A stretch of 56,168 bases of DNA from a virus (IMGVR_UViG_3300044699_000054:64001-120168), one strand, 5' to 3'; positions 13,377-24,195 are shown, counted from the first letter of the stretch. Made by a program: numbers and translations. Notes: generated by a model from the letters alone, not told the origin.

Positions 13377-13455
13377 GGGCCTGGAATGGTGTTCGACAAG
13401 GGTAAAGCCGCATGACGGAGGCCCTTGGACCCGAGTTCGATTCTCGGCAGGTCCA
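13377..13455 (+). ncRNA. ssrA: Mini-tmRNA: tRNA-like domain only, no mRNA-like domain
   Basis: 5' GGGCCTG-GAATGGTGTTCGAC, P2 AAGGG/CCCTT, 3' GGAC-CCGAGTTCGATTCTCGG-CAGGTCCA; G3:U70; no D-stem or anticodon. Confidence 0.8.
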
Positions 13456-13456
13456 C

Positions 13457-13530
13457 GCCGGCTTAGCTCAGTTGGTCAGAGCGGCTTCCTTGTAAGAAGA
13501 AGGTCGGGAGTTCGAATCTTCCAGTCGGCT
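13457..13530 (+). tRNA. trnT: tRNA-Thr(TGT)
   Basis: Loop CTTGTAA. Confidence 0.85.
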
Positions 13531-21402: not shown

Positions 21403-21476
21403 GGCGAGCGGACGCTGGGCTCCAGCTGCCCCTCATAAGGGCGGATTGCCGGGATCGTCACCCGGGCTCGCTACCA
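21403..21476 (+). tRNA. trnM: tRNA-Met(CAT), T-loop ATCGTCA, encoded CCA
   Basis: TGCCC-CTCATAA-GGGCG. Confidence 0.75.
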
Positions 21477-21526: not shown

Positions 21527-22264
21527 ATGACTCTGAGACTGAATCAGGTAATCGCCCTGGAGAAGGGTGTCAAGACCACTGCTGAGAGCGGTCTCACGCA
21601 GGCGTATCACCAGCTGGAGAAGGTCCAGCTCTTTCATGGCCAGGAACGGTCCTACCGGCCAAAGGATGATGACGGTGACCAGTACCCAGCGGAGCCAGTA
21701 AAGCTCCAGCTGCGCGTGCCTGATGTCCTGGCCGACACTGCTGAGCAGTTGACCAGACTGTTCGACGTGACGGCTACCAAGGACGCCGGAAACCAGCTTG
21801 CAGCCGCTGACATCGAGGTCGACGGTGTAACGATCGTGTCCGCCGTACCAGTGACTACGTTGCTGGCGCTGGAGAAGAAGCTGGTCGACCTGGCCACCTT
21901 CGTATCCAAGCTGCCGGTTACCGACCAAGCGGAGAACTGGAACTGGGATGCTGACAGCCTGTGCTGGAAGGCCGATACCGCACAGACCATCAAGACCAAG
22001 AAGATTCCGCGCAACCACGTCAAGGCGCCAGCCACCGACAAGCACCCAGCTCAGGTGGAGGTCTTCACCGAGGATGTGCTTATCGGTACTTGGTCTACCA
22101 CCAAGCTCTCGGGTGCCGTGTCCGCAGCGCAGAAGCGTAGCCTGTTGGAGCGAGTCAAGAAGCTCCAGCAAGCTGTGAAGGTTGCTCGGGAAAAGGCCAA
22201 CATGACTGAGGCTGCCGATGTTCACATTGGCGCCCAGATCTTCAACTACCTGCAGTGGACCTAG
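21527..22264 (+). CDS. Conserved uncharacterised helical protein (recalled as DUF7873-like, unverified)
   Basis: LNQVIALEKGVK...RSYRPKDDDGDQYPAE...KDAGNQLAAADIEVDG..VPVTTLLALEK. Confidence 0.7.
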   Translation: MTLRLNQVIALEKGVKTTAESGLTQAYHQLEKVQLFHGQERSYRPKDDDGDQYPAEPVKLQLRVPDVLADTAEQLTRLFDVTATKDAGNQLAAADIEVDGVTIVSAVPVTTLLALEKKLVDLATFVSKLPVTDQAENWNWDADSLCWKADTAQTIKTKKIPRNHVKAPATDKHPAQVEVFTEDVLIGTWSTTKLSGAVSAAQKRSLLERVKKLQQAVKVAREKANMTEAADVHIGAQIFNYLQWT

Positions 22265-22443
22265 GTCTGCTGCAGGTACCAAGACTCCCGTTCTGAGGAA
22301 CGGGTTGGCACAATCTCAATATGAGGCATTGCTCCTGTGCCCGAAATCAGGTGCTCACTTAACTTCAGCATGTGAGAGCCGTTCGCAGCGGCCTCAAGAC
22401 TCTTGCCACAACCTCAGCATTGCCGTAGACCACTGCATCAAAT

Positions 22444-22553
22444 GGTCATGATCACAAAACCAGAAGGCCCGTGTTCAAATCACGGCGGCGCCTCCAACCA
22501 TGGCGCTGTAGCTCAGCGGCAGAGCGTCTGGTCCGAAGATCTTAGACATGACC
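22444..22553 (+). ncRNA. Circularly permuted tRNA-like RNA (YrlA/Y-RNA-like module)
   Basis: T-arm CCGTG-TTCAAAT-CACGG, acceptor CGGCGCC/GGCGCTG closed by a loop, D-arm GCTC-AGCGGCA-GAGC, closing stems CCAGA/TCTGG and GGTCATG/CATGACC. Confidence 0.75.
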
Positions 22554-22624
22554 TTAAACGGCGGTAGTGGTACAGGATGACGGCACCCCGACATTGATTC
22601 GCTTGTGATCGAATCCAAATCGGT

Positions 22625-22666
22625 TGGTCCCCGGCCTCAAGGAGAGGAGGCCGGGGACCTCTTTTT
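22625..22666 (+). terminator. Intrinsic terminator
   Basis: GGTCCCCGGCCTC...GAGGCCGGGGACC followed by TCTTTTT. Confidence 0.75.
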
Positions 22667-22692
22667 ACGGGTATCATGAACTGCATGACGGT

Positions 22693-23041
22693 ATGAAGAG
22701 AACGGATCCTGTCGGTCACCATCCACGACTGCGAGGTCCAACACTTCCGCTCCGGCGGCAAGGGTGGCCAGAACCAGAACAAGCGGGATACCGGGACCAG
22801 GGTCATCCACCACCCGTCAGGCGCCCGAGGCGAATCCCGCGAGGAACGAAGCCAGCTCCAGAACAAGCGAGCGGCCTTCCTTCGAATGATCAACAGTCCG
22901 AAGTTCCAGCTGTGGCTGGCCATCGAGACCGGGCGCCTGGCTGTGATCCAGTCTGAGCTTGATCAAGTCCACGTTCCACCTGAGGAACTGTTGATCGAGA
23001 CTCGCCACGGCGGGCGCTGGGTACCAGCACCGCATCTGTAA
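22693..23041 (+). CDS. Class-1 release-factor-like peptidyl-tRNA hydrolase (GGQ domain); missed by the ORF track because of a frameshift in the first codons
   Basis: Hand translation ..ERILSVTIHDCEVQHFRSGGKGGQNQNKRDTGTRVIHHPSGARGESREERSQLQNKRAAFLRM.. Confidence 0.85.
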
Positions 23042-23060: not shown

Positions 23061-23089
23061 TTGACAGTGACCTCCTGGCGCGCTATCTT
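23061..23089 (+). promoter_or_regulatory. Promoter TTGACA-17-TATCTT
   Basis: Read directly from sequence. Confidence 0.65.
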
Positions 23090-23130: not shown

Positions 23131-24195
23131 ATGTCCGCGAACGTCGAGCAGATGTTCTCAGTCCGTCAGATGCCGTGGCATGGTGAAGGCATCATCCTGG
23201 ATGACTACCCCGGCTCCTGGGCTGAGGCCCGCAAGTACGCCGGCTTGGAATGGGAGCCCGTCGAGGAGTCCGTTTACCGGATCCTTGGCACCGAACCTCT
23301 CGAAGTCCCCACCTACGAGCTACACAGCATGGATGCCGATGGCACGCCGCTGTACGCGATGATCGGCACTGAGGTCGTACAGGTCAACAAGTACGACTCC
23401 ACTGACAGCTACAAGCACATCGTCCGCTCGGACACTGGGGCCGTTCTCTCGGTCAACGCCAAGGGCTACACACTCATCGATCATGAGTCCATGGGCGAGA
23501 TCGTGGAAGCGGTTCTGGGCGAGGTCAACGTCAAGTGGGAAACCGCTGGCTGCCTCGATGGCGGTAAGTCGGTCTGGGTCCTGGTCATGCTGGACGAACC
23601 GATTGAGCTTCCCGGCGACAACTCGGTGACCTATCCCTACCTGGCAATCACCAACCGGCACGATGGCAAGGGCTCCTGCGCTCTACGGGCGACTGCCGTT
23701 CGTATCGTCTGCGCCAACACATTCCGGGCAGCTGAGCTGGAAGGCGAGCGCACTGGTGCCACCTTCTCGTTCCGTCACTCGTCAAAGTGGCGCGAGCGCA
23801 TCGATGAGGCTCGGGAAGCTGTCAACGGTGCCCGCAAGGAGATGGTCGAATACCGTGCGCTGGCTGAGGAACTGCTCGGCATGCCGATCACCGCTGGCCA
23901 ACGGGAGCTGTTCGTTACCTCGTTCATCCCGATGCCACCGACCGGTCTAGTGACTGACCGGGTCATGGGCAACGTGGAAGAGGCTCGGACCAAGCTACGC
24001 AAGATCTTCGAATCGCCGACCACAGCCGGTATCCAGGACACTGCCTACGGGCTAGTCCAGGCGTCTGGCGAGTACCTGGACCACGTCCGTGCCGCCCGCA
24101 GCTGGGAGACGCGGCTTGGCCGGACCATCATGAAGCCGGAACCGCTCAAGGCCAAGGCTCTGAGCCTGGTGCGCGAGATCGTGTCCGTCGGATGA
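23131..24195 (+). CDS. DUF932 / phage-plasmid TIGR03299-like protein
   Basis: MFSVRQMPWHGEG...AGLEWE...ETAGCLDGGKSVW...NRHDG....T.VRIVCANT. Confidence 0.85.
   Translation: MSANVEQMFSVRQMPWHGEGIILDDYPGSWAEARKYAGLEWEPVEESVYRILGTEPLEVPTYELHSMDADGTPLYAMIGTEVVQVNKYDSTDSYKHIVRSDTGAVLSVNAKGYTLIDHESMGEIVEAVLGEVNVKWETAGCLDGGKSVWVLVMLDEPIELPGDNSVTYPYLAITNRHDGKGSCALRATAVRIVCANTFRAAELEGERTGATFSFRHSSKWRERIDEAREAVNGARKEMVEYRALAEELLGMPITAGQRELFVTSFIPMPPTGLVTDRVMGNVEEARTKLRKIFESPTTAGIQDTAYGLVQASGEYLDHVRAARSWETRLGRTIMKPEPLKAKALSLVREIVSVG

What the first reader, a model, noticed from the sequence alone, without database searches (positions are those of the whole stretch)
22444..22553. Circularly permuted tRNA-like RNA (Y-RNA/YrlA-like) without an adjacent Ro60 gene
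Seen: the tRNA arms occur in permuted order: CCAGA, variable AGGC, T-arm CCGTG-TTCAAAT-CACGG, acceptor 3' strand CGGCGCC, loop TCCAACCAT, acceptor 5' strand GGCGCTG, D-arm, TCTGG. The anticodon stem is therefore open-ended and extended by GGTCATG/CATGACC. The 3' strand carries TGGTCCGAAG, similar to the Ro-binding GGUCCGA motif of Y RNAs, and the acceptor loop contains discriminator+CCA. Established: bacterial YrlA Y RNAs have this topology and normally lie beside Ro60/rtcB. No TROVE gene is visible in this window; the neighbours are an uncharacterised helical protein and a GGQ factor. Inference: a Y-RNA-like decoy or scaffold with a new partner, or a permuted tRNA gene needing ligation.
Basis: partly seen in the sequence, partly recalled or inferred. 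Interest (0 to 1): 0.8.

Follow-up and report, generated by a model that had tools for sequence, protein, structure and literature searches.

The report
Phage tRNA-mimic RNA beside DUF7873 gene
The flagged stretch is a real "inside-out" transfer-RNA look-alike at the heart of a roughly 385-base non-coding RNA that always travels with one protein gene of unknown function (DUF7873) in phages and bacteria, so it looks like a Y-RNA-type particle that uses a partner other than Ro60.

Summary
Observation confirmed. Window 22444-22553 holds a circularly permuted tRNA: T arm, 7-bp acceptor hairpin closed by a UCCAACCAU loop, D arm, and an open "anticodon" stem that runs on into a long rod. It is the core of a longer RNA (about 22279-22667) that lies downstream of the DUF7873 gene (21527-22264) and ends at an intrinsic terminator.

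A covariance model built only from bacterial loci scores it at 102 bits (E 2.5e-24). Across 67 relatives, 96.6% of cells pair and all 35 pairs show compensatory changes.

The RNA follows DUF7873 in:
- 50 of 52 related viral contigs
- 78 of 80 bacterial loci
- 5 of 5 distant cultured phage groups
- 81 of 81 DUF7873-positive Streptomyces genomes, against 1 of 70 negative ones

The phage has no Ro60/TROVE, RtcB or Rnl2 gene. Of the 81 DUF7873-positive Streptomyces, 35 lack TROVE, and where Ro60 exists it has its own separate YrlA-like RNA. The "Ro-binding" TGGTCCGAAG is not conserved, and a ligation-dependent permuted tRNA is not supported.

Best reading: a YrlA-like tRNA mimic whose dedicated partner is DUF7873, probably processed by RNase P and CCA trimming. 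Binding and expression are untested. This scan found the same pairing before on other DNA; I found no paper describing it.

The parts
21527..22264 (+). DUF7873 gene (245 aa), the protein gene that always precedes the RNA
   Evidence: Pfam PF25283, E 1e-96. AlphaFold2 model pLDDT 93 with no informative fold match. Invariant TDKHPAQVE at residues 170-178.
22279..22420 (+). 5' domain of the RNA. It holds a conserved hairpin 22287-22304 with compensatory changes and the repeated motif TTGsCACAAnCTCA at 22305-22319 and 22403-22417. Variable hairpins stand where relatives carry a first tRNA-like head.
   Evidence: Alignment with five related viral loci; fold of 22270-22668; a first head is present in many relatives.
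22421..22585 (+). Core domain closed by helix UGCCG 22421-22425 / CGGCA 22581-22585
   Evidence: Invariant in six aligned loci and formed in the minimum-free-energy fold.
22430..22436 (+). Outer rod helix, 5' strand (pairs with 22564-22570)
   Evidence: Helix 1 of the family structure: 7 of 7 pairs show changes on both sides, 93% of cells paired.
22437..22443 (+). Family-conserved internal loop, 5' side (AUCaAAU; family consensus AUCGA)
   Evidence: A22437, U22438, C22439 and A22441 are 87-96% conserved in 67 sequences.
22444..22450 (+). Middle rod helix, 5' strand GGUCAUG (pairs with 22547-22553)
   Evidence: Helices 2 and 3: 7 of 7 pairs compensatory, 94% paired.
22460..22464 (+). Anticodon-stem-like helix, 3'-type strand CCAGA (pairs with 22527-22531)
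   Evidence: Helix 4: 5 of 5 pairs compensatory, 95.5% paired.
22469..22485 (+). T arm with UUCAAAU loop
   Evidence: Helix 5: 99.7% paired; T-loop U, U, C, A 91-100% conserved.
22486..22508 (+). 7-bp acceptor hairpin. Loop 22493-22501 reads U73-C-C-A-ACCAU, with U at -1 before G1 (22502).
   Evidence: Helix 6: 99.8% paired, 7 of 7 compensatory. N73 is followed by C in 66 of 67, full NCCA in 29 of 67, and U at -1 in 44 of 67.
22509..22526 (+). U8-A9, D arm GCUC-AGCGGCA-GAGC, G26
   Evidence: Helix 7: 98.5% paired; U8, A14, G19 and A21 are 100% conserved.
22527..22531 (+). Anticodon-stem-like helix, 5'-type strand UCUGG
22532..22546 (+). Asymmetric internal loop, 3' side (UCCGAAGAUCUUAGA). Only U22542 and A22544 are family-conserved.
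   Evidence: The UGGUCCGAAG string is not conserved.
22547..22553 (+). Middle rod helix, 3' strand CAUGACC
22554..22563 (+). Family-conserved internal loop, 3' side (UUAAACGGCG; consensus UUAAAyG..G)
   Evidence: U22554, A22556, A22557, G22560 and G22563 are 87-98% conserved.
22564..22570 (+). Outer rod helix, 3' strand
22588..22623 (+). Variable 3' hairpin domain
   Evidence: Fold; sequence not conserved among close relatives.
22626..22667 (+). Intrinsic terminator: 13-bp GC-rich stem plus a U run
   Evidence: It is the only terminator-like site between 21300 and 23200, and no promoter-like site lies between the DUF7873 gene and the RNA.

Best explanation
Window 22444-22553 is the tRNA-like head and inner rod of a non-coding RNA of about 385 nt (roughly 22279-22667). 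The RNA lies downstream of the DUF7873 gene, with no promoter-like site or terminator between them, so the two are probably co-transcribed. It ends at the terminator at 22626-22667.

Shown:
- The RNA belongs to a large family whose structure is maintained by compensatory evolution.
- The family is inherited as a unit with DUF7873 in bacteria of several phyla and in many phages.
- It is distinct from the YrlA RNAs that sit beside Ro60 in the same genomes.
- This window carries a single-headed variant.

Inferred:
- The head folds into a tRNA L-shape without an anticodon loop.
- Like M. smegmatis YrlA, it is cut by RNase P before G22502 and trimmed back to the encoded C22494-C-A22496. This would give a two-piece, CCA-ended tRNA mimic held together by the rod.
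- DUF7873 binds the RNA, most likely at the conserved rod loops AUCGA / UUAAAYG or at the head. The invariant TDKHPAQVE hairpin tip would be the contact or active site.
- The particle acts on tRNA or translation-linked RNA metabolism, independently of Ro60. That would explain why phages place it inside their tRNA gene islands.
For: Membership. Model R2, built from bacterial loci only, scores 22426-22576 at 102.1 bits, E 2.5e-24.

Structure. In 67 sequences 96.6% of cells pair, 35 of 35 pairs have double changes, and the covariation score is 0.905 against 0.10-0.14 for slid controls and 0 of 500 shuffles.

Coupling to DUF7873, always on the same strand and just downstream:
- 50 of 52 viral loci at E <= 2e-5
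- 78 of 80 bacterial loci
- Gordonia phages Phendrix and Fryberger and Arthrobacter phage Racecar
- Rhizobium, Vibrio, Klebsiella, Ralstonia and Pseudanabaena phages, 5 of 5
- in 151 Streptomyces genomes, 81 of 81 DUF7873-positive against 1 of 70 negative, Fisher 6.6e-43
- no third gene is conserved nearby

Ro-independence:
- The phage has no TROVE.
- 41 of 50 related viral records have no TROVE match, as do 18 of 50 DUF7873-positive bacterial genomes and 35 of 81 DUF7873-positive Streptomyces.
- Where TROVE is present it has its own adjacent RNA that matches only the head of the model.

Processing precedent. M. smegmatis YrlA, with a 7-bp acceptor stem, is cleaved by RNase P and receives CCA (PMC4201824; 10.1101/312249). 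Here the stem is 7 bp, N73-C74 is near-universal, and U at -1 is common.
Against: There is no transcript, end-mapping, binding or processing datum for any family member.

DUF7873 is near-neutral (median pI 6.4). It has no recognisable RNA-binding fold or any informative structural relative.

Fixed adjacency on one strand would also be expected of a cis-acting 3'-UTR element.

TROVE is over-represented among DUF7873 carriers, so a link to Ro60 is not excluded:
- 9 of 50 related viral records
- Rhizobium phages carry both genes about 6.5 kb apart
- Streptomyces odds ratio 1.97, p 0.05

An earlier internal check of this scan priced the 'protein binds RNA, Ro-independent unit' claim at only 22/100.
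Confidence: 0.55

Rival explanations
1. It is an ordinary Ro60-dependent Y RNA (YrlA class). The phage supplies the RNA and uses the host's Rsr, and DUF7873 is an accessory or unrelated neighbour.
For: Same overall architecture as YrlA: a rod ending in T arm, closed acceptor and D arm. YrlA is the only Rfam family that aligns. TROVE is enriched among DUF7873 carriers. The conserved 5'-strand AUCGA partly resembles GNCGAA.
Against: 35 of 81 DUF7873-positive Streptomyces keep the RNA without any TROVE match, as do complete genomes such as S. tritici. Genomes and phages with both genes carry a separate head-only-matching RNA next to TROVE. The GNCGAAN0-1G motif is not met. The RNA tracks DUF7873 rather than TROVE (Fisher 6.6e-43 against p 0.05).
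Confidence: 0.12
2. It is a purely cis-acting 3'-UTR element of the DUF7873 mRNA. A tRNA-like structure would define or protect the mRNA 3' end, or autoregulate the gene, and there would be no separate RNA particle.
For: It is always immediately downstream on the same strand. In the window there is no promoter-like site between gene and RNA and a single terminator after it. tRNA-like 3' structures processed by RNase P are known from MALAT1/mascRNA (general knowledge).
Against: The RNA is about 385 nt, with seven covarying helices and invariant loop nucleotides conserved across phyla. That is far more than 3'-end protection needs. Known protein-RNA pairs such as rsr-YrlA in M. smegmatis are likewise co-transcribed. 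In one Nocardia locus the RNA lies 2.6 kb from the gene. In one Streptomyces the RNA core outlasted deletion of the gene.
Confidence: 0.12
3. After RNase P cleavage the head is a working split acceptor. It would be aminoacylated and used either on the ribosome (rescue-like, as tmRNA with SmpB) or as the dedicated substrate of DUF7873 acting as an aminoacyl-tRNA-dependent enzyme.
For: The stem is 7 bp with N73-C74 near-universal, and CCA is encoded here. Chen et al. raise possible aminoacylation of cleaved M. smegmatis YrlA. The gene order equals that of permuted two-piece tmRNA genes (general knowledge). The invariant polar TDKHPAQVE motif in a near-neutral protein looks more like an active site than a generic RNA-binding surface. 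The phage context is tRNAs, a mini-tmRNA and an RF-1-domain gene.
Against: No uniform synthetase identity set: the discriminator is U, G, A or C, the first pair is G-C or U-A, and the window has C3-G70 rather than G3-U70. No tag reading frame, and no tmRNA or tmRNA_permuted hit at E <= 10. Many bacterial members have only 6-nt loops, which may not be cut. The RF-1 neighbour is not conserved.
Confidence: 0.12
4. It is a true circularly permuted tRNA gene whose ends are joined to give a normal tRNA, as in the red alga Cyanidioschyzon merolae.
For: All tRNA arms are present in permuted order, with CCA and a leader-like spacer in the loop.
Against: No conserved 7-nt anticodon loop can be formed. 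The sequence past the anticodon stem is a conserved helix with its own covariation. There is no bulge-helix-bulge motif, and the phage has no RtcB or Rnl2 ligase. The phage already encodes tRNAs for all 20 amino acids. The family also occurs in bacteria, which lack a splicing endonuclease (general knowledge).
Confidence: 0.02
5. It is a decayed tandem duplication of a tRNA gene or a chance junction between two tRNA fragments.
For: The window holds 40 tRNA genes, and tandem junctions give weak YrlA-like hits.
Against: Junctions score at most 32 bits against 102 bits for the element. The structure is conserved with compensatory changes across phyla.
Confidence: 0.01

Closest known systems
YrlA (Y RNA-like A, Rfam RF02553), partner of bacterial and phage Ro60/Rsr (Chen et al. 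2014, PMC4201824; Wang et al. 2018, 10.1101/312249)
   Same: Both have a rod formed by the 5' and 3' ends, interrupted by internal loops and ending in a circularly permuted tRNA: T arm, loop-closed acceptor stem, D arm, no anticodon loop. The tRNA tertiary-contact nucleotides are kept. Like YrlA/YrlB, the RNAs often come as tandem pairs.
   Different: This RNA is not next to Ro60 and occurs in genomes without it. It scores 21.6 bits here (25-29 in Streptomyces) against a gathering score of 69. The GNCGAAN0-1G Ro-binding motif is absent, and the rod has its own conserved loops AUCGA / UUAAAYG. It is always paired with DUF7873. In genomes with both systems, Ro60 has a separate RNA.
M. smegmatis YrlA specifically
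   Same: 7-bp acceptor stem and an encoded C after the discriminator. The experimentally shown RNase P cleavage and CCA completion give two halves that stay together.
   Different: That RNA is bound by Rsr and encoded upstream of rsr. Here CCA is fully encoded, and processing is only inferred.
Two-piece (circularly permuted) tmRNA genes of alpha-proteobacteria and cyanobacteria (Keiler, Shapiro and Williams 2000; from general knowledge; Rfam RF04321)
   Same: Same gene order: 3' acceptor piece with T arm and CCA, an excised spacer, then the 5' acceptor strand. A long helix replaces the anticodon arm, and a dedicated protein partner is expected.
   Different: No tag reading frame, no pseudoknot ring, no G3-U70, a full D arm, and no hit to tmRNA models.
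Circularly permuted tRNA genes of Cyanidioschyzon merolae (Soma et al. 2007; from general knowledge)
   Same: The 3' half of a tRNA is encoded before the 5' half, with CCA and a spacer between the acceptor strands.
   Different: Those are matured through a circular intermediate into ordinary tRNAs with an anticodon loop. Here no anticodon loop exists, and the ends form a conserved rod.

Membership tests
YrlA / bacterial Y RNA (RF02553) | Reaches the Rfam gathering score (69 bits) | tested here: not met
   21.6 bits over model positions 30-81 only, and tandem tRNA junctions in the same phage score equally. Caveat: RNAs directly upstream of TROVE genes in related phages also reach only 29-43 bits, so the cut-off misses likely true members.
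YrlA / bacterial Y RNA (RF02553) | Encoded next to a Ro60/Rsr (TROVE) gene | tested here: not met
   No TROVE match in the whole 120-kb phage, and the family is present in 35 TROVE-negative Streptomyces genomes.
YrlA / bacterial Y RNA (RF02553) | Ro-binding motif GNCGAAN0-1G on the 5' strand of the terminal stem | tested here: not met
The window has AUCAAAUG and the family consensus is AUCGAn.
YrlA / bacterial Y RNA (RF02553) | Permuted tRNA-like module (T arm, closed acceptor stem, D arm) at the tip of a rod | tested here: met
YrlA / bacterial Y RNA (RF02553) | Bound by Ro60/Rsr | not testable with these tools
   Needs immunoprecipitation.
DUF7873-associated tRNA-mimic RNA (unnamed family, defined in this scan) | Full-length match to a covariance model built from other members | tested here: met
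   R2, built from bacterial loci only: 102.1 bits, E 2.5e-24, model positions 1-148.
DUF7873-associated tRNA-mimic RNA (unnamed family, defined in this scan) | Lies just downstream of a DUF7873 gene on the same strand | tested here: met
   The gene ends at 22264 and the model match starts at 22426.
DUF7873-associated tRNA-mimic RNA (unnamed family, defined in this scan) | Two tandem tRNA-like heads | tested here: not met
   Only one head is present. The position of the first head is occupied by hairpins in the window and its closest relatives. This is a single-headed variant.
Circularly permuted tRNA gene | The ends can be joined to restore a 7-nt anticodon loop, with ligation machinery present | tested here: not met
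   No conserved loop, and the rod covaries as a helix. No RtcB or Rnl2.
Two-piece permuted tmRNA (RF04321) | Match to the tmRNA models, a tag reading frame, and G3-U70 | tested here: not met
   No tmRNA or tmRNA_permuted hit at E <= 10 in 22250-22720. Pair 3-70 is C-G.
Canonical tRNA (RF00005) | Detected by ARAGORN or by Rfam tRNA at the gathering score | tested here: not met
   Not called by ARAGORN. Rfam tRNA gives 14.6 bits against a gathering score of 29.

The most novel reading that the evidence does not exclude
DUF7873 and this RNA form a Ro60-independent ribonucleoprotein. RNase P and CCA trimming turn the head into a two-piece, chargeable tRNA mimic that engages tRNA-handling machinery: synthetases, EF-Tu or the ribosome, or tRNA-targeting toxins. 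Bacteria would use it for tRNA or translation surveillance. Phages would carry it in their tRNA islands to blunt tRNA-directed host defences.
Probability: 0.15. Interest if true: 0.9.

Novelty: new variant of a known kind. Interest (0 to 1): 0.7.

Why it matters
Y RNAs are understood only as partners of Ro60. This is a YrlA-like tRNA mimic that tracks a different, wholly uncharacterised protein across hundreds of bacterial species: 578 tblastn-confirmed DUF7873 loci in species-representative genomes. It also tracks that protein in cultured phages of Gordonia, Arthrobacter, Rhizobium, Vibrio, Klebsiella, Ralstonia and Pseudanabaena.

If the pairing is physical, it defines a second family of tRNA-mimic ribonucleoproteins. 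It would also give DUF7873 a first functional handle. It is directly testable in tractable systems (Gordonia terrae phages, Streptomyces).

For phage biology, it adds an unannotated RNA gene to the "translation island" of large phages. For annotation, the 400-700-nt "empty" gaps after DUF7873 genes in deposited phage genomes hold this RNA.

Tried and rejected
- **Rfam at gathering score.** It finds nothing at the site. At E <= 10 only a partial YrlA hit appears, no better than tRNA junctions.
- **Megablast of the locus against cultured phages.** No match.
- **Large terminase search.** At most 40% identical to cultured phages, mostly actinophages, so the host cannot be named.
- **DUF7873 function.** Foldseek PDB, VIA-align wide, ESM Atlas and BFVD gave only a protein of unknown function (3kdq, Z 9.7, rmsd 8.4) and generic helical matches. 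Profile against PDB sequences, NCBIfam, PADLOC and PHROGs gave nothing.
- **Third conserved gene.** Neighbour clustering over 82 loci found none. The recurrent Ser/Thr kinase is a paralogy artefact.
- **Flanking genes in the window.** RF-1 and DUF932 are not conserved beside the RNA.
- **Ro-binding reading of TGGTCCGAAG.** Rejected: wrong strand and not conserved.
- **Permuted tRNA needing ligation.** Rejected: see the rival explanation.
- **Papers not held.** Burroughs and Aravind 2016 (PMC5062991) and Sim et al. 2020 (PMC10870794) were not available.
- **Literature searches.** Searches for DUF7873, for permuted tRNA plus phage, and for tRNA-like plus Y RNA plus Streptomyces found no description of this pairing.
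- **Complex prediction.** Not used, because it does not take RNA.

Full report
**Setting**

The window is bases 64001-120168 of a 120,168-bp IMG/VR virus record that CheckV rates 100% complete. It carries 40 tRNA genes covering all 20 amino acids between 10369 and 27126. Its large terminase is at most 40% identical to those of cultured phages, mostly actinophages.

The flagged element follows the last tRNA of the main array (tRNA-Met, 21403-21476) and a 245-aa gene (21527-22264).

**The observation**

- GGTCATG 22444-50 pairing with CATGACC 22547-53
- CCAGA 22460-64 pairing with TCTGG 22527-31
- variable AGGC
- T arm 22469-85
- acceptor 3' strand 22486-92
- loop UCCAACCAU 22493-22501
- acceptor 5' strand 22502-08
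- D arm 22511-25

The nucleotides that make the tertiary contacts of a tRNA are all in register: U8-A14, G15-C48, G18G19 with U55C56, G26-A44, G46, G53-C61 and A58. The minimum-free-energy fold reproduces the permuted cloverleaf (z -3.1).

ARAGORN does not call it. Rfam tRNA gives 14.6 bits. The only Rfam family that aligns is YrlA, at 21.6 bits over model positions 30-81 against a gathering score of 69. That hit is not informative on its own, because junctions between tandem tRNA genes in the same phage give 22-24 bits.

**Comparative evidence for a real RNA**

The upstream protein is DUF7873 (PF25283, E 1e-96). I fetched 52 viral contigs that encode relatives at 30-57% identity.

Ten downstream regions aligned with obvious compensatory changes in the T, acceptor and rod helices. 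A covariance model from these (R1) found a full-length or core match just downstream of the gene, on the same strand:
- in 50 of 52 viral loci at E <= 2e-5; the other two have weaker hits at the same place
- in Gordonia phages Phendrix and Fryberger and Arthrobacter phage Racecar, where the deposited annotation shows an empty gap

A scan of species-representative prokaryote genomes confirmed 578 DUF7873 loci. The best 80 come from Streptomyces, Nocardia, Chloroflexota, Deinococcota, Myxococcota, Cyanobacteria and a Clostridia MAG. Of these, 78 carry the full-length RNA about 200 nt after the gene, usually with a second, weaker head in between.

On 67 distinct sequences:
- 96.6% of cells form standard pairs
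- all 35 pairs show changes on both sides
- the covariation score is 0.905, against 0.10-0.14 when partners are slid by 1-3 columns
- no shuffle out of 500 reaches the observed value

This alignment was fitted to the model, which favours the structure. The size of the effect and the independent MAFFT/RNAalifold result make the conclusion safe.

As a clean membership test I built a second model from the bacterial matches alone (R2). It scores window 22426-22576 at 102.1 bits (E 2.5e-24), while tRNA junctions reach at most 32 bits. The element is single-copy in the phage.

**Full extent in the window**

Alignment with the five closest loci and a fold of 22270-22668 show several further parts:
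- a further closing helix, 22421-25 with 22581-85
- a 5' domain with a covarying hairpin (22287-22304)
- a repeated motif TTGsCACAAnCTCA at 22305-19 and 22403-17
- a variable 3' hairpin (22588-22623)
- an intrinsic terminator, 22626-22659 plus a U run

The terminator is the only such site in the region, and no promoter-like site separates the gene from the RNA.

Many relatives carry a first permuted tRNA-like head where the window has simple hairpins. The window therefore holds a single-headed variant.

**Family signatures**

Outside the tRNA core, the conserved unpaired nucleotides are:
- AUC.A (22437-41)
- U22542 and A22544
- UUAAA.G..G (22554-63)

In the acceptor loop, the discriminator is followed by C in 66 of 67 sequences. 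Full NCCA is encoded in 29 of 67, including the window. The base before G1 is U in 44 of 67.

It also lies on the 3' strand, whereas the bacterial Ro-binding motif GNCGAAN0-1G is on the 5' strand (PMC4201824).

**Relation to Ro60**

The phage has no TROVE, RtcB or Rnl2 gene.

TROVE matches were found in 9 of 50 related viral records, next to the DUF7873 locus in only two of them. They were found in 32 of 50 DUF7873-positive bacterial genomes. The negatives include complete chromosomes.

In an even sample of 151 Streptomyces genomes:
- 81 have DUF7873 and 74 have TROVE
- 46 have both and 35 have DUF7873 alone
- odds ratio 1.97, Fisher p 0.05, not corrected for phylogeny

By contrast, the full-length RNA is present next to the gene in 81 of 81 DUF7873-positive genomes. 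Of these, 79 came from the bulk search, and two that its stricter filters missed were recovered on refetching. It is present in 1 of 70 negative genomes, where the gene has been deleted and the RNA core remains. Fisher p is 6.6e-43.

The same search picked up a second class of hits that match only the head of the model. Eleven of these lie about 1.2 kb upstream of a TROVE gene on the same strand. These are the expected YrlA RNAs. Genomes with both genes have both RNAs, each beside its own protein gene.

The same holds in phages. RNAs directly upstream of TROVE genes match only the head. Rfam's YrlA model gives them just 29-43 bits, so its cut-off is too strict for these lineages.

Among cultured phages, 75 records hold DUF7873 and 93 hold a Ro-like protein. 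Rhizobium phages such as RHph_TM61, TM3_3_6, Y65 and TM30 hold both, about 6.5 kb apart. An indirect functional link with Ro60 therefore remains possible, but dependence on it is not supported.

**The protein**

- The AlphaFold2 model is confident (pLDDT 93). It shows paired long helices and a long beta hairpin whose tip carries the invariant T170-DKHPAQVE-178.
- No fold, profile or family search gave a functional lead.
- Median pI is 6.4, which is not typical of a generic RNA binder. The invariant polar motif suggests a specific contact or an active site.
- No other gene is conserved around the pair. In Streptomyces tritici the pair sits between unrelated chromosomal genes.

**Mechanism**

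Shown: a conserved structured RNA genetically locked to DUF7873 and separate from Ro60-linked YrlA.

Inferred: the head folds as a tRNA L-shape. The experimentally documented fate of M. smegmatis YrlA is RNase P cleavage followed by nibbling and CCA completion, with the two halves remaining associated. By analogy, the 7-bp stem, U at -1 and the encoded CCA here predict cleavage before G22502 and a 3' end at A22496. DUF7873 would bind the rod loops or the head.

The placement in phage tRNA islands points to tRNA- or translation-linked RNA metabolism. I put this composite reading at 0.55.

The rivals are:
- host-Ro60 dependence, 0.12
- a purely cis-acting 3'-UTR element, 0.12
- a chargeable split acceptor used on the ribosome or by DUF7873 as an enzyme, 0.12
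- a ligation-dependent permuted tRNA, 0.02
- decay or chance, 0.01

**Prior notes and literature**

After forming this reading I consulted the scan's notes. The same DUF7873-RNA pairing had been reported from at least 132 other genomes. A later internal check accepted the observation but priced the Ro-independent binding claim at 22/100, partly because a word-pattern test found the RNA near only 17.8% of genes.

My covariance-model tests do not reproduce that low figure. They give 78 of 80, 50-52 of 52, 5 of 5 distant phage groups and 81 of 81.

I found no paper on DUF7873 or on this pairing. Two papers that might bear on it were not held.

**Verdict**

This is a new variant of a known kind, a YrlA-like tRNA mimic with a different dedicated partner. 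It is of high interest for RNA biology and phage annotation, and its biochemistry is entirely open.

Noticed in passing
window 22676-23041 (+): An RF-1/GGQ-domain gene (PHROG 3122, Pfam PF00472; nearest NCBIfam models prfB, prfA and prfH). Its GGQ frame is open only from 22697. In frame upstream lie ATG 22676 and ATG 22685, then a TGA at 22694-96, and no ATG/GTG/TTG follows until about 22885. Spacing to GGQ fits a start at ATG 22685, which would put the TGA at codon 4. The possibilities are a non-canonical start (ATC 22706 or CTG 22709), read-through, a pseudogene or an assembly error. The gene is not conserved beside the RNA in relatives.
   Followed up: partly
window 13377-13458 (+): An 82-nt 'mini-tmRNA'. 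The Rfam tmRNA model aligns only the tRNA-like domain: acceptor stem with G3-U70, UUCGAC, helix 2 closed by a 15-nt loop, and the T arm. There is no tag reading frame. The score is 47.1 bits in the whole-window scan and 38.5 bits locally. The scan has already followed this up separately (e1-5456487).
   Followed up: partly
Streptomyces genomes G103, G109, G112, G120, G127, G160, G178, G179, G189, G197, G217; L064:485-670: Head-only matches to my model lie about 1.2 kb upstream of TROVE genes on the same strand. In phage locus L064 the match lies directly before the Ro-like ORF (688-2280). These are likely YrlA RNAs, but Rfam's YrlA model gives related phage examples only 29-43 bits against a gathering score of 69. 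Actinobacterial and phage Y RNAs therefore seem under-detected by Rfam.
   Followed up: partly
L161 (G121:C34:2500-5600), RNA at 2465-2611: One Streptomyces genome keeps the RNA core (74.7 bits) although the DUF7873 gene and the first head have been replaced by unrelated sequence. It is the only orphan among 70 DUF7873-negative genomes.
   Followed up: partly
window 22305-22319 and 22403-22417: A repeated motif TTGsCACAAnCTCA flanks the region where relatives carry the first tRNA-like head. It is nearly invariant among the six closest loci. Its role is unknown.
   Followed up: no
window 23061-23089 and 23131-24195 (+): The only sigma-70-like promoter match in the region (TTGACA, 17 nt, TATCTT) precedes a DUF932 / TIGR03299 'phage/plasmid-like protein' gene. 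This suggests a new transcription unit starts after the RF-1 gene.
   Followed up: no
Rhizobium phages RHph_TM61, TM3_3_6, Y65, TM30 (MN988561, MN988524, MN988525, MN988521): These cultured phages carry DUF7873 at about 133-134 kb and a TROVE-domain gene at about 140-141 kb, both within the tRNA region. They would be a good system for asking whether the two RNA-protein pairs interact.
   Followed up: no
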